NCBI RefSeq assembly: GCF_009914755.1
Contig: NC_060934.1
Direction: 5' to 3' (one strand)
Source: the human T2T-CHM13v2.0 reference genome, Homo sapiens
DNA length: 64,000 nucleotides
Under the pieces are notes generated by a model. That model did no database searches. It was given only the letters and a program-made list of their open reading frames with translations, and was not told where the DNA came from. The translations under genes and the position numbers were made by a program. Numbering within the stretch: position 1 is the first letter of the stretch; the number at the start of each line of letters is the position of its first letter. Shown here one piece after another: positions 36,663 through 55,393 of the stretch.

Positions 36663-37596
36663 ACCATTGGCATAAACAGGATGGCCCATCCGAAGCCAGG
36701 GTCATCCAGTCCAATTTTAACTAACTGCTCTTAGCTAACTGACAGGTTCCATATTATGGCAAAGGCTTCTTGGACAGAACCACCAGTTGCTGGCAGGTTT
36801 GCACTTGGCCTGTGCTGTAATGCACTTTTCTTGGGGGAGGTGAGTGTCGCATCTCTTCCCATTCTAAAATGCTGTTGTGCACAGGACAAGAGTGCTCACC
36901 CATTGGCTGTATCCCTTCATGACTTGACTTGGGCTCAGCCTGTTTGGCAGGTGGTCTCTGAGGCTCCCACCTGTACAGGTAGTGACCACACTGTACAGCA
37001 CTTGACAGTCACTGTACAGTGACGAACTGATCAGCATTTGAGCCCCACTTTCCAAAGGTCTGGCTGGAGCTCTCTGATTATCATCACTGGCTGCATGGAA
37101 CATCCCTACAGACTATTGTTTGTTACTGCACACCCCTGGCTTGGGCATGCAGATGGCCTATTGTGAGGTTTGTGGAAAGGCAGGAGACAACTGAGGGAGG
37201 TGAGTGTGGCACTCCAGTTGCCTAACAAGGCATTCAGGAAGGGTAGTACCTGCATCCCTTTCCTGTGCTGCTCCTTCACTTGCTGCCACCACACATGCTT
37301 TCCTGACCCCTAAGAGTGTCAAGATGCACATGCATGGTGGCCCATGGTCCAGGTGCTGATGAGAAGAGAAAAGGATACCAGTTCTCCCCAGATTACCAGA
37401 GGAAGTAATCTCTGTAACTCTCCTGCCCTCCCAATGCAAAACCCCTTGCCAGTGTGCCTGAGCGTGGCCTGGCATTGCTGCTTGCCAACATGCCACAGGG
37501 TCAACCTTGCAATCATGGGGCCTGATGGCCTACACCTGGGCCACAGACTACATGACCTTACCTTGAACATAGGGAGAGTGACTGTGACATCCAATA

Positions 37597-38336
<740 letters not shown>

Positions 38337-38597
38337 AAATGTCTCTTGGAAATTTGGCATTTGGCCATGCTACACTCTCATCTCTGCACATGAGGAATAT
38401 GTTGGGACACTATTGAAAAAAATCAAACTCAACACCTAACGGCATGGTCCCAATGCTGCGTAAGACATTTGTCAGATTATTTTCAGGGGAAACTGTGAGA
38501 CTATTATGAGTGCGTGTGTATGGGCATGCAGCCTCTGTGTATGTGAGGTGAGGTTGGGAGAGAGATTTGTAATACCCCAGTTAATAGAATCAATCTG

Positions 38598-39158
<561 letters not shown>

Positions 39159-39914
39159 CTAGAGCAAGGCATTCTGACTGGTCCCACAGGTTCACATGGA
39201 AAGGAGATAGCACAAATGAATGAAGGAACTGTGGGAAAGACAGATATCTTAATAAATCACATTTCCTTTTTAAGGATATTTTTAAGGCACCGGTGGAAGC
39301 AGACATAGCTTGGTAATCTGTGGTGTATTCTCGGAAGGTACCACTTGAATGGGAAAGAGGAGACAGACAAAGACAACCAAGAGGCTTGAACTTGACAAAA
39401 ATTATTTATAACAAAATGGGCAGCTTTGTGCATAGAGGTGCATGTAAATATATACAAAATGCTAATAGTATCAGAAGATGAACATCCTGCTTTGTTCAGT
39501 GATTTCATGGAGTTGTTTTGCATTTCCTTGTCATGTTCTCTGTCTACATGTTTAAAGGGAGGATTACATGTGAACACTATCCGGTATTATGCATCTAAGC
39601 TTGTGTTACCAATCATTGGTAGATAGATAGTGAGGTAACTTCTAGTTCCCATCTCCTCTGGTAAGAGCTAAGATGCAAACTCTTTGTGATGAACTGACAT
39701 CAAGATGAAATATAGCACCCCTGTTTTCTCTGCGTCAGTCTGCCTTCAGGCTCACCCTGTGAACTCACCAAAGGGAGTGAAGTGTGGATGTGTCTCTTTT
39801 ACCTATTTTCACCTTGGTTCAGTTCTGGTTTATGCATTGTCCAGACTACCCAGGATGTGACGATTGCAGGGAGGAGGTCATGTTTGTCATAAAAATGCTT
39901 TGGCTCCTTAGGAT

Positions 39915-39967
39915 TCAGCAAAGGTATCCACTGCCTGGTGTCTGTGGTGCCTGCAGGACAGTGCATT
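39915..39967 (-). other. Candidate next exon of the DUX-like gene (stops after 17 codons, no second homeodomain)
   Basis: Strong acceptor cttttcttcctgttttcctacag|AA; phase 1 gives ECTVLQAPQTPGSGYLC*. Confidence 0.35.
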
Positions 39968-40344
39968 CTGTAGGAAAACAGGAAGAAAAGAGGGCTTTCA
40001 GGCCATCTTCACATCAACCCTACGACAGACATTTTCAAATATTGTTCTCACCATCCTTACTCCCTCCCAGGCCCCTGAGATGCTCATGCCCTTGGATTAA
40101 ACCCCTGCAGTGCTGGAAGAAGAGGACTCTGCACTGCCTGCCACACCAGGACTGGAAGATCCATGGCCTTCCCTTCTTCCAAACTACCTTCCCACAAGAT
40201 GGGGATGGTGGTCACATCTCCAACACTAGCATGCTGTGGAAGAGACATCAGCATTCTTGCAACAAATCTGGAAACAGCCTAAAGAGACATTTCTACTTCA
40301 AAGAGTTGCACTGAGGAAGTGCACTGGCACTGCTGGGGACTCAC

Positions 40345-40456
40345 CTGGGGCCCAGGGCTGAGGCTTCTCGTGTCCTTGGAGCTGCTGTCCTCCCGAGGAG
40401 TGTCCACACTGCAGCCAGCTCAGCCTCAGGTGTCTTCTCTGGTTTTGAAACCAAAT
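40345..40456 (-). pseudogene. DUX-family homeobox exon, recognition helix plus linker
   Basis: Acceptor cttttcccacttag|ATT; 112 nt encoding IWFQNQRRHLRLSWLQCGHSSGGQQLQGHEKPQPWAP; donor CCAG|gtgagt; in frame with the 43326-43477 exon. Confidence 0.85.
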
Positions 40457-40996
40457 CTAAGTGGGAAAAGAAGATTCAAGTTTTATCCGATTTAGTCTAC
40501 ATAATTTTAAGTATCTATTTGAGCTCAATACCAAGAATCACTTCCTTCTCTCTCCCATCTGTGATCTCCAGAGGAAAGGTCCCCGGGCTAGGAGACACTG
40601 GCTGGCATCCTAAAGCCAGAGCTGGCCAAAGGGTGTGTGTCCACTCTTCCTTCACCTCTTCCCCACCCCACACTTGTTTTTGTCTCACGCTCACTTGCTC
40701 TTTCTGCCTCCCTCTCACTCTTTAGGTCTCACAAAGGCTTTGGCCAAAGACTGACTGACTTTCCTTGGCTCTCTGTCATCTCCCCATAGTCAAAAGCATT
40801 TCATAACACACAATCCATGTGAAGGGACCTCTGATGAAAATCCATTTAAAGAGGAGCTCACTAATTATCAATACTTACTGCTGAGCCTGGAATCATTCAT
40901 ATATACCTCAGAGTTCATTCATTCCAGATGCAATACTAGATAAGGAGACTCCTATGAACCAAATATCTAACTCTGAATAGATAGTGACTGTCATAA

Positions 40997-42930
<1,934 letters not shown>

Positions 42931-43325
42931 AAAGAAACAAAAACCATGTGATGAGAAACGGGACTTTATGGCAGCACTGACCTCACTGTCCTCAATATGA
43001 CCTATTAAAGAACAAGCATTCTGAGCATTCTGTAATATTGGTTCCAGGTATCAATTACAACCTATCATGATCATGGTGACCCTATTACCTATATTCTCTA
43101 GAGCATGCAAATATGATTTAATTTTCTCCTACCAGGAAAAAGGCCCAATTTCACTTCCTTCCCCCATCAATGAATACACCAGACCACATGTTCCATGATT
43201 GGTAAAAGGCAGAGATAGGGGTCTTACTTTCAGTTCATTCTTAACATGGTGTAATTGGAGACTGCTTAGCCCAGCTTGTCTTTTTTCTTTGACCCCAAGG
43301 AAATGAAACAAAAATACAAGCCCAC

Positions 43326-43477
43326 CTGTATCCTAGACTCCAGACTGCTGATTTCTTTGGCCAGTTGTTCTCTGGTTGGTATGCCAGAGTAGGAGTTCTG
43401 CTTAAACAATGCTTGAAGGGCATCCTTTTGACTCGAGTTCAAGACAATTCTTTGTTGAGATTCTCTTGGGAGACAGC
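43326..43477 (-). pseudogene. DUX-family (PRD-class) homeobox exon, helices 1-2 and start of helix 3 (DUXB/DUXBL/DUXC-like)
   Basis: Acceptor tttctctaaaccag|GC; 152 nt encoding (G)CLPRESQQRIVLNSSQKDALQALFKQNSYSGIPTREQLAKEISSLESRIQ; donor CAG|gtgggc at the PRD-class intron position before WFQN. Confidence 0.85.
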
Positions 43478-44369
43478 CTGGTTTAGAGAAATGGGTCAAA
43501 GCCATAGGAAGGATTTGTTGTGGATTCACATCTGTGATTCAGTGTATACAGGCCTTCTGTTGATACCGGGTTCAAGGTGTTGAGTCCCAGTGGTCACTCT
43601 GTGTTTGTACTTTTTGGATACACACTCCATGATTAACTGGGTGCAGGGCATTACACAGATTAGAAAGGGTGATAGCCTTCATCCAGAGATCCACACCAAA
43701 AAGTGAATCTCATGCCATTCATAACATTGCACACAAACAACTCAGAAACCAGTTGAAAAGGGAGACATTGAACGAAACATTCAGTTTCAAAATGTGAAAA
43801 TCAAATTTGGACTTTCTGGGTTAAACACATATAGGGCAAGGGTTGAAAGACTACCTGTTGCGCTCTATGCTCTCTACATGAATAACAGAATCAATCGTTC
43901 CCCAAACCTCAGCATCACACAGTATACCCATGTAACAAAACTGCACATGTACCCCCTGAATCTAAGATAAAAATAGAAATTATTTTTAAAATTGTCAAAA
44001 AAAAATTAAAGATGTTATCTTCAAAGGGTGGTCATTAGGATGAACCTTGATGTGGTCGGAGGGAGGCATGTAGCTGAGTCCCAGTGTTTATATCTGGAGA
44101 GGAGAGTGAATGGCCTTGCATCCCCCATGCAGGGACAATGACCAGCAGGGTGTCAAGATCTGTTGTAATATTTGCACCATTACTGAAGATCTGTGTAGCA
44201 AACTGGTTCCCAGGGAACTCTTGGCAGGAATCAGAATGCATCTATGTCACTCCTTGTAAAATTAAAAAGGAAACAACAGGAACAACAAAAAACCCGGCAA
44301 CATTTCCTAGTATTTATGATGCCAGACATTTTCTGAGAGCTGTGTGGCAGCCTTCTTAGTGGAGAACAC

Positions 44370-44408
44370 AGTTTTTGTCCCACATCTCCATTCATCTGGG
44401 TCACTGTG
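44370..44408 (-). promoter_or_regulatory. V(D)J recombination signal sequence, 23-RSS
   Basis: Minus strand: heptamer CACAGTG (44408-44402), exactly 23-nt spacer (44401-44379), nonamer ACAAAAACT (44378-44370; 8/9 match to ACAAAAACC). Confidence 0.93.
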
Positions 44409-44837
44409 CTTCACTCACATGGCATTGCAGTGCTGTGAGATACACCACAGATACAGTCAGCTTTGTCCTGGGACTGGATGTTAGAGATGGTTAAGGAGTG
44501 GTCAGCCTCAGACCTGGAGCCTGAGAAGTGATCAGGGATCCCGTCCCCCTTGCCATGGTTTCCATCACTCTTAAGCCACATCACACACCAAGGGTCTTCC
44601 CTGACCATGCTACCATGCAGTGGTGTAGGTGCTACGCTTACTGCTCAGTGTGCAGGTGAGTTTGTCTGAGGCTCCCAGGCTGGAAGAGGGACCCTGAAAA
44701 CAAACTCATTACATCCTGGAGGAAGGAGAAGAGGGGACAATTCTGTCATGAGCGAGCCAGGGATCAGGATGCTGAGGGCCATCTTGGCCTGTTCCATGAA
44801 GGAGGAGGATAAAGAGGAGGAGTACGGTGTATGCCAC
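44409..44837 (-). pseudogene. Orphan immunoglobulin lambda variable (IGLV4-like) pseudogene: leader exon 44837-44789, intron, V exon 44693-44409
   Basis: Leader (V)AYTVLLLFILLLHGT resembles MAWTPLLFLTLLLHCTG. V exon reads LGASDKLTCTLSSKRSTYTTAW*, then after a frameshift LKSDGNHGKGDGIPDHFSGSRSEADHSLTISNIQSQDKADCICGVSH; the long CDR2 KSDG-x-H-x-KGDG is typical of IGLV4. Lesions: GTG start, GC donor, FR1 deletion, stop, frameshift. Confidence 0.92.
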
Positions 44838-44882
44838 AGTCCAGATACCCCAGTGCTCTACTGAGGCAGCCATGCTGCAGGT

Positions 44883-44932
44883 CTCTTATCCATCCTCCAG
44901 TCCCTAGAGAAACAGGGGCCCTTCATGCAAAC
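44883..44932 (-). promoter_or_regulatory. IGLV-type promoter remnant
   Basis: Octamer variant GTTTGCAT (44932-44925; consensus ATTTGCAT) about 90 nt upstream of the leader, and TATA-like GATAAGAG (44890-44883). Confidence 0.7.
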
Positions 44933-45900
44933 CCTTGGCCAACCAAACCCTCGTGGGGTCTTTCCTGCCCTGTGACTAGGTGTCATTTCTGGGAGGCGTG
45001 GGCCTGTGCTTACCCTGGCTTGAGGCTCTGCAGGGGCCCAGGGAGGACTCAGCTGCTAGCCCAGTGAGTCCTGAGTGGAGGCCAGGATCAGTGTCTGTTT
45101 CCCCATTTCCCCAGCTGAGAGCCCCACAGGTCCCCTCAGGGCAGGCCCACAGGTTATCCTCTCTGTGACTAGAGGAGGAGTGGTTTTCACAGAGGCTCCT
45201 GCTTCCACCTAAGCCAGGACCCCTGCCCACTCACTGCCCAATGACAGAGTGAGGTTCTTCCTCAGGGCAGCCGCCTGATGTCTCAGTCTTTAGTTTTCTA
45301 TGTAGGCCTCCTCATTGGGAACAGGGTGCACAATTCTCACTTCATAAGGAGTTCTTAAGGGAAGGGTTATCTCATATACAAATTGCAGCTGAAATAAGCA
45401 TACATTATCTACAAGCAGGGGCCATTCAGCCCTGAACCCACTTGCCAGGGTACTCATGAAGCCAGGTTTCTCTCTCCCCACTTGATTGCTCAGGAGATCA
45501 GCATATAGTGAGCAGTCTGGTGAGTGCTGGGGAGGACAAATTCACCTGATTGATAGATCCACTGAATTCTCTGTCAAGTGAGGAGAACCCCGGGAGTAGA
45601 AGGAGAAAGTACTGGAGAATCAGAAGACTTGGGGGTTTTTCTGAAGTGAGGGGTTAGAGAGATTCACTAAAGGAAGGGGATGCAAGTGACAACTTACAAG
45701 ATCTGAAAAACTTCCCATGGCTGTTTGGACATAGAGAACTTGCTGACTAAGTGAGGAGGTCACAGGGGAGAAGGAGATGGTAGGAAAGAAAGACTGGAGA
45801 ATCAAGACAGGAAATTGTGAATCAGAGATGAGGAATGGGAGAGGGTGAGTATGTTCCACACTTTATCAAAGACTGGAGGAGGCGCCAGTGGGGACATTGA

Positions 45901-47455
<1,555 letters not shown>

Positions 47456-47457
47456 AT

Positions 47458-47474
47458 GTATATATACACCAAAC

Positions 47475-47526
<52 letters not shown>

Positions 47527-47570
47527 ATACATATATATACACCATATATATATATATAATATATATATAT
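47458..47570. repeat. Compound (TA)n/(TG)n microsatellite
   Basis: Seen directly at the Alu tail position. Confidence 0.95.
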
Positions 47571-49151
47571 TTTTTCATGTATCCTCATGACCAGGGAAAT
47601 TATTTAAATTAACCTAAAATGACACTAATGGTATATAAAATATAGAAAGATAAACAGAAAAATAATCACAATTGTGGAAATATTAGGGGTATACATGAAA
47701 TAAATGCATGCAAATTCAAAATATAGGTATATTGATTTGTCTTGGTGTATCAGCGTCCTAGGCCTGAAATCACATGGACCACAAACTGGGTGGGTTAAAA
47801 CAACAGAAATGTCTCAGTTCTCGGAGCTAGTAGTGCAAAATTCATAGGCAAGACCAGGTTCCCTCTGATGCTTCTAGGGGAAACCTGTCCTTCCTGGCTC
47901 CCGGTGGTTTCTCATTTTTTTCCTGCTCCTCCTCTTTGCCATCCTTCCTCCATTCAGCAGGATGGCCCTGCATCAACTCAGTCCATGCATGTGAACCCAC
48001 CACCTCCATGCACCACATTAAGCACAGCTCCCTGAGTGATCCATAATCATCAACCTCCAGGCACTGACAGTCACTCTGTGTCCTCCCAGCTTTTGGAGAA
48101 ACTTGTGGACAAGTCATCTCCAAGTAAAGAAGATCTTGTCAATGTAAGACCATGCTTCTTTCTTATACAGAAATTTTGCTTTCCTGGTTTATTTCTTTTC
48201 CAATCAAATTTAGAGATAAAAATCTGACAATGTACATTATGGGAGATATAAAATATCCTTAGTTGAGGTGGTATTAGGTGGGCATCTCTTACTAACTGAC
48301 AGTTTCCATTATAAACTGTAATGAAGAGGCTCTAGTTTTCCCCTTTGAATTAAGGACACTGCCACAGCTAATCTAAATCAACTTGAAAGATAAATTTGGC
48401 AGGAAAATATCTTATCTTTTCCACAGTTATCCTCCGTGCTAGTTTTGGGGAACTTTGATTTTTGACTTAACCACTGTACCCCTTCTGGGTTTCTAAAGTC
48501 ATCAAGAGAAAAAACAGACCTGTGTGAAGTGCACAGCATAATATAATCCTCACAGTGCTTTTAAAATATGATTGCAGATGTCATCAGCCTCAGGGGAGAG
48601 TGGTATGTACCTTGAAATAACTCACTGAGGCACAAACTTGCTGACTTCTTGTCCTCCATCTTGGAGAAGATAAGGAGGATATGAAGGATGGAGAGAAAGA
48701 GGAAGAGGAAATGTGATGGTGGAGTGGGTAACATAAAAAAGGGAAGCCAAATAAGTATATGTGTTCTCAGTGGCTTCTCACTTTCTTTTGGTCCATCAAG
48801 GAGACCAACACATCTGAGGAGAGTGGTGATAGGCTGCTGTTAGCTGGGACCACACTTGCACTTTGAAAACAACCCCCAAAATCCCTGCAGGCAAATGAAG
48901 GATTTCCTGAGAACATCCTCCCAGGGAGCAGATACCCATTCTGCAGAAGCTCTAAGCCTGCTGGGCTAAGCCCTCCACAGGCCACTTTAATGAGGAGGAG
49001 AGGCTGTAGGTAGTGGTAGGACAACCATGTTGCATGAATTTTCTGTGTGCCCCGTCTTTTGACTCCATCTCAAAAAAAAAAAAAAAGTATGTGTGTTGCT
49101 TTGAAACACAAGTGCAGATGTTTATCAGCAGCCTTTGCCTTTGTGGGAGTT

Positions 49152-49958
<807 letters not shown>

Positions 49959-51894
49959 CAGTTTGTCAAGCTCCTGTAGGGCCAGCATAACCATGGCAAC
50001 CCTGAATAGTCTGTGAATGTTTGCAGGCCCCTTGCTGGTCTAATTTCAGGTACATCACGAAATGAAGCCGGCATCTAATGGAGAAGTAATGTCATGTACA
50101 CTAACATACGATACCAATGTTGATGAAGATAAAACTTGCCCTCCTACCAAATGGGAAATTAATCACTGGATACACACAATTATGAAAAAACTGGACATCA
50201 AGATTGTCCATCTCTACCTCTGTGCCAAACTCCAGACTTTCATTAATAAGAATGTATCAATATTGGTTCAGTCATTGTAACATTTACCACAGTCATGTAA
50301 GATGTGATTACCAAAAGGATGCTGAGGTGGGGGAAGGGTATATGAGAACTTTCTGTACTACTTCTTCAGTTTTTATGTTAATTCAAAACAGTTTCACATA
50401 ATGTCCATTAATTTAAAAAATATGGTAGCATTGTTCAGGAAGTGTTTCATTTTAGTTAATGTTTAACAAGCAGCTAAATATCTAAATACTACATTGAGAT
50501 ATTCTATACTATTAAAACTGAAACAATTTTGAAGTTGTAAATATATCTTCTGTAGTTGTAGCACTAGTGATTGACTTAATAAACTTAAATTTGCACACAT
50601 GAAATAAAGAATATAGCATAGCAATTTTAGAGTTGTCTGAAATATGGGATGCTGAATAATCTAGAATTGTTATCCTTGAATGAACTTAACAATTTAATTT
50701 CCACAGTACTTTCAGTTGACTGCTTTCCAGTGTGCACCTAGTTATGAGGCCAGTGGCAGATTATTCTCTTCCTCAGCTTGGTGTGGACGGTAGATTCTCT
50801 TGATCCCTCAATATCTACTGTCATATCCTGGAGGCAAGATGCTGGGAAACGTACTATGAAAAAGACAGCTTTTGACATCTTCCTGCCAGAGGCCGCAGAT
50901 AAATGAGTAATCATTTATTTACAGCTTAAATGTTTGACCCATTGTTCACCATCTGCATAGTGAAACCCCCTGAATCTCAGTTGGATTTTAACAAGAACCT
51001 GCAGTGCGGGCTGCACTCATAACCAACAGACAGACTGTGTAGGCAAATGCCTGTATTGAGATGAAACAATATAGAACTATTGGAGTGACCAAGAGCACTG
51101 GGCCTGGTGCATAAAGGTATGGGTTCAAGTCCTAGTTAGAAGATGCACAAACCTGAGAAAGTTATGGAGGTCTCTCTGTGCCTCAGCTCCCTGTTCTGAG
51201 GTATTGAAATGTTAATATGGCCTATGTTATGTTATAAGGCTAAAAATGGTGAAATGGAGGTAAAGCTTTTAGAAGACTGGTGATTCATAAGTGCCCTAAA
51301 GTGTTCAATCATTATATGTCTAGAAGAATATGCCAGAACCTTGGTAGTGGTTGAATACAGAGAAGAAACATGGGTGGCTCCAGGGGAGTGGAGGATGGAA
51401 TTTTCTTCTTTCTTTCCATGGGTATGATGCTTTACAGCTCATGGAGAATATCTGCTATTTCTTGTGATGCTTACACCAGCCTGGAGGAATGGGCAGAGCA
51501 GGGGCTACAACCCATATTTGACAGTTCAGGGAAGTGAAATGGAGAGATTTGAAATGGTCTGCCCAGAATCACAGCACCGATGAGTGATGGACCTGGCACA
51601 AGAAGGTAATTGGTTTTCTGTGGACTGAGGTCTCTGAAGACCTGAGACCTTGAAATAATACCCTGAACCCTTAACAAAGAGCTATTTTCACTTGCTTTCT
51701 CAACTGCTCCTACCCCAAAGTTTCTTCAGGAAGGCTGATTCCCTGGAAGAGGTGGCTAAGTCAAAAGAAGAGCTGAAACAATAATAAAAAAAGAATCCTT
51801 CAACCTCTAGGTTTTAATCCCTGATCTCACCTTGCAGTATAAGCCAGCTTATAATCAGTTGACCATCCTAAGGGACCATGGTCTGCTTGGCCCC

Positions 51895-54971
<3,077 letters not shown>

Positions 54972-55393
54972 GCCCCCAATCTGGCTCAGAACTCAGGACA
55001 TTTTAAACCAATTGCCAGTTGATGGCTGTGCCAAGAATCAACTTCCATTCAACTGGCCAACCTTTCATGAGTGGCTAATTGAAATTAACTGAAAATATGC
55101 CTGTCTGGGCTGATGCTTTAGTGGTTTAATGAATTAAATCTGTGACCCCAACTGTCTCACTGAGTTAATCTGAGCAACTATCTGAGCAACCTGGAGTAAG
55201 GCATACTTGAGAATGGGGAGTACCTAAATAAAGCCTATTTAAATAACTTGGAAGTCAAACCTGATGAAATGAATACTTGAATTTAATTAGACACAGGCAT
55301 AATGTATTCAAGGTCGTGAGTGAACATTGTACTATAGAGGAATGTAAACATGAAAACTAGCACCATGAGCAGGTAGATATATGGCTCCTAGTA

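What the first reader, a model, noticed from the sequence alone, without database searches (positions are those of the whole stretch)
44370..44932. Orphan IGLV4-like gene segment with an intact 23-RSS outside the lambda locus
Seen in sequence: the full germline V architecture (octamer variant, TATA-like box, leader, intron, V exon), so it arrived by DNA-level duplication rather than retroposition. The coding part is disrupted, yet the RSS has a perfect heptamer, an exact 23-bp spacer and an 8/9 nonamer. The V ends in a long CDR3 with a stop just before the heptamer, as I recall for IGLV4-3. Established: V-lambda segments carry 23-RSS and IGL is on chr22. Inference: this is an orphon in a KRAB-ZNF cluster and a strong potential off-target RAG1/2 substrate.
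Basis: partly seen in the sequence, partly recalled or inferred. Interest (0 to 1): 0.8.

Follow-up and report, generated by a model that had tools for sequence, protein, structure and literature searches.

The report
Ancient orphan V-lambda pseudogene, intact RSS
This is a long-dead copy of an antibody lambda light-chain V gene stranded on chromosome 10, duplicated on both sides of the centromere, that happens to keep a textbook recombination signal; it is a genomic relic rather than a working element.

Summary
On the minus strand, 44932-44370 carries a complete germline V-lambda unit: octamer variant, TATA-like box, leader, intron, V exon, and CACAGTG / 23-bp spacer / ACAAAAACT. It is a pseudogene with at least seven lesions. 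It is not a recent orphon. Its V exon is at most 77% identical to any chr22 IGLV. On a tree it groups (99/97) with two in-locus chr22 pseudogenes inside the IGLV4-like clade. Colinear chr10/chr22 homology covers about 2.8 kb (44009-46797), so the copy was made at DNA level. A second copy lies at chr10:43.456 Mb, 93% identical with an identical RSS and all the lesions. It is part of a segmental duplication of at least 18 kb. The intact heptamer and nonamer fit chance survival or earlier in-locus selection (P about 0.05-0.1). The motif is not unique: 450 genome sites match within one mismatch. RAG activity is untested, and no consensus-like 12-RSS partner lies in the window. An IMGT review lists no chr10 IGL orphon. 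Verdict: an ordinary relic, probably an unlisted orphon pair.

The parts
44009..46797 (-). Orphon block: stretch colinear with the surroundings of two chr22 IGL-locus V pseudogenes (chr22:22594412-22596936 and chr22:22474048-22475554)
   Evidence: Colinear blastn segments at 65-70% identity: 46797-46374, 46027-45841, 45599-44330 and 44197-44009. No colinear match was found beyond these ends in 40 kb of each chr22 region.
46020..46347 (.). Repeat insertion inside the block. It is masked in the hub table and absent from the chr22 counterpart. It is present in both chr10 copies.
   Evidence: There is a gap in the colinear match: window 46374 to 46027 against chr22 22594819 to 22594842. The p/q alignment runs through it. 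The repeat family was not determined.
44925..44932 (-). Octamer variant GTTTGCAT (7 of 8). The 10q copy has ATTTGCAT.
44884..44889 (-). TATA-like ATAAGA, shared with the chr22 relatives
44789..44837 (-). Leader part 1. The ancestral initiator ATG is GTG here (44837-44835). An upstream in-frame ATG lies at 44873-44871.
   Evidence: Alignment with four chr22 relatives, all of which have ATG at this column
44694..44788 (-). Leader intron. The donor is GC instead of GT (44788-44787), there is a 21-bp deletion, and the acceptor AG is at 44695-44694.
44409..44693 (-). V exon, disabled by a 37-bp FR1 deletion (junction 44678/44677), a TAG at 44612-44610 and a 5-bp FR2 deletion (about 44602/44601). 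The codon aligned with the relatives' second conserved Cys is intact at 44449-44447. It has a long CDR3 and a TGA at 44413-44411.
   Evidence: PDB matches
44370..44408 (-). 23-RSS: heptamer CACAGTG (44408-44402), 23-bp spacer, nonamer ACAAAAACT (44378-44370)

Best explanation
A non-functional relic (orphon) of a V-lambda gene of the IGLV4-like lineage. A DNA block of about 2.8 kb or more was copied from the IGL locus into what is now the ZNF33A-ZNF37A intergenic region. The block held the V promoter, leader, intron, V exon, 23-RSS and flanks. The gene was already dead when the region was duplicated to the other side of the chr10 centromere, so there are now two copies. Nothing suggests a present function. 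The RSS heptamer and nonamer are intact most likely for two reasons: part of the lineage's divergence accrued while the segment still worked inside the IGL locus (inferred), and 16 bases can escape later neutral decay by luck. As a RAG target it is one of several hundred consensus-grade 23-RSS motifs in the genome and probably sits in inaccessible chromatin (inferred, not tested).
For: - Lambda V identity: PDB hit at E=2.2e-16 and chr22 IGL matches.
- Tree of 26 V exons: chr10p and chr10q pair at 100/100. They join chr22:22596k and chr22:22474k pseudogenes at 99/97, inside an IGLV4-like clade of 10 rows at 99/99. The stem to the chr10 pair is 0.23 substitutions per site.
- Best V-exon identity to chr22 is 77% over 248 bp.
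- Genome-wide there are only two close copies, both on chr10. The other 6 of 8 matches and 8 of 10 matches are on chr22 between 22.44 and 23.29 Mb.
- Colinear flanks run from 44009 to 46797.
- Seven lesions are present in both chr10 copies.
- The paralogue is 92.8% identical over 701 bp with a 39 of 39 identical RSS. It lies inside p/q homology of at least 18 kb at 89-92% identity.
- Changes derived on the chr10 stem are evenly spread: 36 of 233 informative sites upstream, 36 of 233 in the V exon and 5 of 33 in the RSS.
- By codon position the stem changes number 6, 7 and 12, with 9 synonymous and 16 non-synonymous. This suggests a mix of constrained and neutral time.
Against: - Heptamer plus nonamer show 0 of 14 informative stem changes, against 5 of 19 in the spacer. 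By my arithmetic on those counts, Fisher one-sided P is about 0.05, and P is about 0.07-0.1 from the 15.5% rate. That is mildly more conserved than neutral decay predicts.
- The two nearest chr22 relatives have both lost the heptamer, one by a C-to-A change and one by an 8-bp deletion.
- Between the p and q copies, the 3' V half plus RSS has 6 substitutions in 240 bp. The mean for 240-bp windows across 9.3 kb is 15.7, which puts this stretch at the 3.75th percentile.
- These three points leave room for weak constraint, but all were chosen after seeing the data.
- Absence from annotation was checked only in the hub's RefSeq table and one review.
Confidence: 0.85

Rival explanations
1. Active off-target RAG substrate. 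The intact 23-RSS is bound and cut by RAG1/2 in developing lymphocytes and contributes to chr10 structural variants.
For: - The heptamer is perfect, the spacer is 23 bp and the nonamer matches 8 of 9.
- The nonamer has A-A-A at positions 4-6. That fits the purine-A/T-purine rule stated in the abstract of PMC12711392.
- The spacer is of V-lambda type. On my own PWM built from 14 chr22 V-lambda RSSs it scores 39.2 bits. Leave-one-out scores of those RSSs range from 27.5 to 59.4, and the next-best site in the window scores about 0.
- The unit brings its own octamer/TATA promoter about 520 bp from the RSS.
Against: - 12 of the 14 in-locus RSSs score higher on that PWM.
- 450 genome sites match the motif within one mismatch, many in A-rich repeat tails.
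- No 12-RSS with up to 2 mismatches lies in the 64-kb window.
- The two chr10 copies are both 23-RSS and cannot pair under the 12/23 rule (established knowledge).
- RAG2 needs H3K4me3 (abstract of PMC5175335, seen in the listing). I recall that 3' ends of KRAB-ZNF genes are H3K9me3-rich; this was not tested.
- No held paper contains both 'RAG-mediated' and 'ZNF33A'.
Confidence: 0.1
2. The RSS, or the 3' half of the V exon with it, is kept by selection for some exapted role on chr10, such as a regulatory or architectural element.
For: Heptamer plus nonamer show 0 of 14 stem changes against 5 of 19 in the spacer. The p/q divergence is low at 6 per 240 bp, the 3.75th percentile. The RSS is identical in both copies.
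Against: - All the tests are marginal and post hoc.
- The spacer and the V exon diverge at the same 15-16% as the upstream DNA.
- The coding part is wrecked.
- A simpler cause exists: selection on the RSS while the segment was still in the IGL locus.
Confidence: 0.03
3. Recent orphon copied from IGLV4-3 or another present-day chr22 V gene.
For: It shares a long CDR3 and a TGA two bases before the heptamer with the IGLV4-3-like segment L006.
Against: - Identity to L006 is only 75% over 239 bp, and the best identity to any chr22 V is 77%.
- The stem is 0.23 substitutions per site, against 0.018 and 0.034 for the two tips.
- The long CDR3 is also shared with the two chr22 pseudogenes.
Confidence: 0.02

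Closest known systems
Human IGL orphons listed by IMGT (two IGLV and two IGLC on 22q outside the locus, two IGLV on chromosome 8; Lefranc and Lefranc 2020, PMC7555362 section 3.4.2, passages read)
   Same: It is a germline-configuration V-lambda segment outside the IGL locus, unable to contribute to light chains, and copied at DNA level with promoter, intron and RSS.
   Different: - It is on chromosome 10, which that review does not list.
- It is present as a pair flanking the centromere.
- It is far more diverged from all in-locus genes (at most 77% in the V exon). I recall IG orphons as typically much closer to their in-locus relatives; this was not tested here.
In-locus chr22 V-lambda pseudogenes at chr22:22596k (L003) and chr22:22474k (L007). 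From recalled gene order these are probably among the IMGT clan-designated IGLV pseudogenes downstream of IGLV4-60 and IGLV4-69. The names were not tested.
   Same: - They are the nearest relatives on the tree (99/97).
- They share the long CDR3, the nonamer ending in T and about 65 bp of DNA downstream of the RSS.
- Their flanks are colinear with the chr10 block.
   Different: Both have lost the heptamer, one as CAAAGTG and one by an 8-bp deletion. They keep FR1 and the ATG. Path lengths are 0.40 and 0.44 substitutions per site.
IGLV4-3 (L006, name recalled) and the mouse V-lambda-x type light chain (PDB 2qhr, as named by its depositors)
   Same: They share the SDG.H.KGDGIPD-type CDR2/FR3 region and a long germline CDR3. 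L006 also shares the TGA just before the heptamer.
   Different: L006 is an open V exon in the locus. By hand count on the alignment printed, the chr10 fragment is about 60% identical in protein to the V-lambda-x-like chains. It is 75% identical in DNA to L006.
Cryptic RSSs used in off-target V(D)J recombination
   Same: It is a CAC-initiated heptamer with a nonamer at 23 bp, outside an antigen-receptor locus.
   Different: It descends from a true RSS rather than arising by chance, and its match to the consensus is much better than I recall for most cryptic RSSs. No evidence of use could be obtained here.

Membership tests
Germline V-lambda gene segment | Octamer and TATA promoter upstream of the leader | tested here: met
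   GTTTGCAT (7 of 8) at 44932-44925 and ATAAGA at 44889-44884, aligned with the same elements in 4 of 4 chr22 relatives. The 10q copy has ATTTGCAT.
Germline V-lambda gene segment | Leader exon, short intron and V exon with conserved Cys, Trp and Cys | tested here: met
   All parts align. The codons that align with the relatives' conserved Cys, Trp and second Cys are present; which residues these are is from recalled domain knowledge. The reading frame is broken by ATG to GTG, a GC donor, a 37-bp deletion, a 5-bp deletion and a TAG.
Germline V-lambda gene segment | 23-bp-spacer RSS directly 3' of the V exon | tested here: met
   CACAGTG-23-ACAAAAACT
Germline V-lambda gene segment | Significant sequence similarity to lambda V domains | tested here: met
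   PDB phmmer E=2.2e-16 and chr22 IGL DNA matches. Pfam V-set is below its cut-off because only half a domain is in frame.
IG orphon (IMGT sense) | IG gene located outside the main locus | tested here: met
   The window is on chr10 (hub table). All other relatives lie on chr22 between 22.44 and 23.29 Mb.
IG orphon (IMGT sense) | Already catalogued as an orphon | tested here: not met
   The review PMC7555362 counts six IGL orphons, on 22q and chromosome 8, plus one processed gene on chromosome 18. The hub's RefSeq table has no row here. IMGT gene tables, GENCODE and HGNC could not be consulted.
IGLV4 subgroup | At least 75% nucleotide identity to subgroup members (IMGT rule, recalled) | tested here: inconclusive
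   Identity over 234-248 aligned bp is 77% to L004, 75% to L006 and 74% to L005. The tree puts it with unassigned pseudogenes inside the wider clade.
Functional RAG target | RSS sequence competent by RIC or REC score | not testable with these tools
   The RIC model is not available here. The published 23-RSS threshold is -58.45 (passage in PMC5203794). The surrogate PWM score is 39.2 bits, within the 27.5-59.4 range of 14 in-locus RSSs.
Functional RAG target | Partner 12-RSS in cis | tested here: not met
   0 matches to the 12-RSS consensus with up to 2 mismatches in the 64-kb window. Weaker cryptic partners were not scanned.
Functional RAG target | Accessible H3K4me3 chromatin, RAG binding, observed breaks | not testable with these tools
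   No chromatin or break data are available. 0 held papers contain both 'RAG-mediated' and 'ZNF33A'.

The most novel reading that the evidence does not exclude
The two chr10 copies are a previously uncatalogued, very old IGLV orphon pair. Their lineage split from all surviving human V-lambda genes roughly six times longer ago than the 10p/10q duplication. Their consensus-grade 23-RSSs, each next to its own octamer promoter, are still cut by RAG in human pre-B cells. That would make them fixed, paired off-target sites flanking the chr10 centromere.
Probability: 0.08. Interest if true: 0.55.

Novelty: new member of a known kind. Interest (0 to 1): 0.3.

Why it matters
If it is unlisted, it adds a chromosome-10 pair to the short list of human IGL orphons. 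It also shows that an orphon can keep a full RSS long after its coding part has decayed. It is a clean natural test case for whether sequence-perfect RSSs outside antigen-receptor loci are protected by chromatin alone. Otherwise it is a neutral relic with no expected phenotype. For repertoire and structural-variant pipelines it could attract mis-mapped IGLV4-like reads or be flagged as a predicted cryptic RSS.

Tried and rejected
- Pfam scan of three open fragments. Only sub-threshold Ig hits for P0001 and none for the other two. Uninformative because of the frameshifts.
- The search for homologous proteins with residues 17-77 of P0001, longer proteins. It returned 1 protein among 3 candidates, a 100%-identical 256-aa prediction from one 2.6-kb contig. 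It gave no information on relatives in other species.
- Test for constraint from p/q divergence. The result was the 3.75th percentile, which is not compelling.
- Codon-position and synonymous test on the stem. Counts were 6, 7 and 12, with 9 synonymous and 16 non-synonymous. This is suggestive only.
- My first RSS scan printed no RSS lines at all, even for open in-locus V segments, because the pattern tried only one spacer length. It was redone.
- Literature. 'orphon' + 'IGLV' + 'chromosome 10' gave 3 papers, none about a human chr10 orphon (passages of one read). ZNF33A / ZNF37A / 'immunoglobulin lambda' gave 12 papers holding at least two terms, none holding the lambda term. 'clan IV' + IGLV + pseudogenes gave 1 paper, on yak. 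'RAG-mediated' + ZNF33A gave 0.
- Guy et al. 2003 (PMC420363) and Tunnacliffe et al. 1993 (PMC309326) describe the 10p/10q ZNF clusters and may mention this segment. Neither is held. I saw only their titles, in a reference list.
- Rejected readings: a chance motif, retroposition (intron and promoter are present) and a recent IGLV4-3 copy.

Full report
**What is there**

Read on the minus strand, window 44932-44370 is a complete germline V-lambda unit. The RSS is CACAGTG (44408-44402), a 23-bp spacer and ACAAAAACT (44378-44370). It is the only site in the 64-kb window within one mismatch of the 23-RSS consensus, and none of 100 dinucleotide-preserving shuffles produced one.

The longest in-frame piece of the V exon (44644-44411, 77 aa) matches lambda light chains of solved antibodies. 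The best E-value is 2.2e-16, and the hits include a mouse chain its depositors call 'V lambda x'. Pfam alone gives only sub-threshold Ig hits, because just half a domain is in frame.

**Anatomy and lesions**

I aligned the unit with four chr22 relatives. This gave the following parts:
- Octamer GTTTGCAT at 44932-44925, 7 of 8. The 10q copy has the perfect ATTTGCAT.
- TATA-like ATAAGA at 44889-44884.
- Leader part 1 at 44837-44789.
- Intron at 44788-44694.
- V exon at 44693-44409.

Relative to all four relatives, the chr10 sequence carries these lesions:
- The initiator ATG is changed to GTG.
- The splice donor is GC instead of GT.
- There is a 21-bp deletion in the intron.
- There is a 37-bp, frame-shifting deletion in FR1.
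- There is a TAG at 44612-44610.
- There is a 5-bp deletion in FR2.
- There is a 12-bp deletion upstream of the octamer.

The TGA two bases before the heptamer and the long CDR3 are not lesions of this copy. The open chr22 segment L006 ends the same way. I take L006 to be IGLV4-3 from recall of its position and features.

**Where it came from**

A search of the window's own assembly with 701 bp gave 8 matches:
- The window itself.
- A second chr10 copy at 43455717-43456420, on the opposite strand, 92.8% identical.
- Six V segments on chr22 between 22.44 and 23.29 Mb, at 65-73% identity.

A 2-kb query gave the same picture, with 10 matches: 2 on chr10 and 8 on chr22. Over the V exon alone, the best chr22 identity is 77% over 248 bp to L004, an IGLV4-69-like segment. 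Next come 75% to L006 and 74% to L005.

I built a maximum-likelihood tree of 26 V exons: 23 from chr22, one kappa outgroup and the two chr10 copies. The chr22 places were taken from the ranked list and were not exhaustive. The tree shows:
- The chr10 pair joins at 100/100.
- The pair sits beside two chr22 pseudogenes, L003 at 22596k and L007 at 22474k, at 99/97.
- All of these lie within an IGLV4-like clade of 10 rows at 99/99.
- The stem to the chr10 pair is 0.23 substitutions per site. The tips are 0.018 and 0.034.

So 'IGLV4-like' is right, but this is not a copy of IGLV4-3 or of any surviving gene.

**Extent and mode of transfer**

Colinear similarity to the L003 region covers window 46797-46374, 46027-45841, 45599-44330 and 44197-44009. 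Similarity to the L007 region covers 45384-44010. The copied unit is therefore at least 2.8 kb, from about 1.9 kb upstream of the promoter to about 360 bp downstream of the RSS.

The block is interrupted by a masked repeat at 46020-46347. The chr22 counterpart lacks this repeat and both chr10 copies share it. Promoter, intron, RSS and flanks are all present, which rules out retroposition.

**The paralogue**

The 10q copy lies inside a block of p/q homology of at least 18 kb at 89-92% identity. The block runs from window 36676 to 55056, limited by what I fetched. The two copies lie about 5.3 Mb apart in inverted orientation. Titles seen in a reference list describe duplicated zinc-finger clusters flanking the chr10 centromere; I could not read those papers.

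None of the seven lesions differs between the p and q copies, so the gene was dead before that duplication. The RSS is identical at 39 of 39 positions.

**Age**

At 499 sites where at least 3 of 4 chr22 relatives agree, 77 changes are shared by both chr10 copies (15.4%). A further 31 are private to one copy (6.2%). The stem is therefore about five times as long as each post-duplication branch.

Under a constant clock, the lineage split from its nearest chr22 kin about six times longer ago than the 10p/10q duplication. With primate neutral rates (recalled), the duplication falls at tens of millions of years ago. The split then falls around or before the radiation of placental mammals.

The split could have happened inside the IGL locus. 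The move to chr10 is bounded only between the split and the duplication. Without other vertebrate genomes I could not narrow this.

**Is the intact RSS remarkable?**

Several points bear on this:
- Stem changes are evenly spread: 36 of 233 sites upstream, 36 of 233 in the V exon and 5 of 33 in the RSS.
- Inside the RSS, all 5 changes are in the spacer (5 of 19 sites). None are in the heptamer or nonamer (0 of 14).
- By my arithmetic on those counts, this is P of about 0.05 (Fisher, one-sided), or 0.07-0.1 from the 15.5% rate. It is marginal and post hoc.
- The nearest relatives show what decay does. L003 now has CAAAGTG and L007 lost the heptamer in an 8-bp deletion.
That would also have protected the RSS.
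- Between the p and q copies, the 3' V half plus RSS has 6 substitutions per 240 bp against a mean of 15.7. That is the 3.75th percentile of windows, low but not extreme.

I read these as chance plus earlier in-locus selection, not as present function.

**RAG target?**

By consensus match, the RSS is as good as those of open in-locus V-lambda segments, several of which have 8 of 9 nonamers. On a simple PWM built here from 14 chr22 V-lambda 23-RSSs it scores 39.2 bits. The leave-one-out range is 27.5-59.4, though 12 of 14 score higher. The next-best site in the window scores about 0. This PWM is not the RIC score, which I could not compute. The published 23-RSS RIC threshold is -58.45 (passage in PMC5203794).

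The nonamer keeps A-A-A at positions 4-6, the feature stressed in the abstract of PMC12711392.

Against special status:
- The same pattern within one mismatch occurs 450 times in this genome, against 115 for the reversed control. Many matches are in A-rich repeat tails and many are true IG RSSs.
- No 12-RSS with up to 2 mismatches lies in the window.
- The two chr10 copies cannot pair with each other under the 12/23 rule.
- RAG2 recruitment needs H3K4me3 (abstract listing of PMC5175335). I recall that KRAB-ZNF 3' regions are heterochromatic; this was not tested.
- No held paper links ZNF33A with RAG-mediated events.

Activity is therefore possible in principle but unsupported.

**Known or new**

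[quoted passage not shown] It adds a processed gene on chromosome 18 (PMC7555362, section 3.4.2, passages read). The hub's RefSeq table has no feature at this place.

I could not consult the IMGT tables, GENCODE or HGNC, nor the 10p/10q sequence papers. 'Unlisted' is therefore provisional.

In kind this is an IG orphon pseudogene, a well-known class. Its unusual traits are its age, its presence as a centromere-flanking pair, and the survival of the RSS.

**Verdict**

This is an ordinary genomic relic with a small curiosity value. It is a new member of a known kind, with interest 0.3.

Noticed in passing
G000 chr10:43063084-43063332 (+), outside the window: An open, kappa-like V exon (120 aa open frame, 41% identity to the lambda query) lies about 0.39 Mb from the 10q copy. 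It is probably the known IGKV orphon of chromosome 10 (name recalled). If so, the chr10 pericentromere has collected IG segments from two different loci.
   Followed up: no
L008 (chr22:23257765-23257996) and L012 (chr22:23226000-23226236): Two V-lambda pseudogenes carrying TAG stops form a 100/99 clade with the IGLV4-3-like segment L006. They lie 37 kb and 69 kb upstream of it. I could not tell which catalogued pseudogenes they are.
   Followed up: partly
L005 (chr22:22575637-22576194): In this assembly the IGLV4-60-like segment reads in two frames, with a one-base gap in FR2 relative to its relatives. This could be a pseudogene allele or a different gene from the one I recall as functional.
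   Followed up: no
window 46020-46347: A masked repeat is inserted into the orphon block. It is shared by the 10p and 10q copies and absent from the chr22 counterpart. Its subfamily would give a minimum age for the block on chr10, but it could not be classified here.
   Followed up: partly
P0002: A 256-aa protein predicted from a single 2.6-kb public contig is 100% identical to the chr10 V fragment.
   Followed up: no
window 36676-55056 against chr10:43446000-43465999: The 10p/10q homology covers at least 18 kb at 89-92% identity and reaches to within about 600 bp of the ZNF33A 3'UTR end given in the hub table. Its full extent was not mapped.
   Followed up: partly
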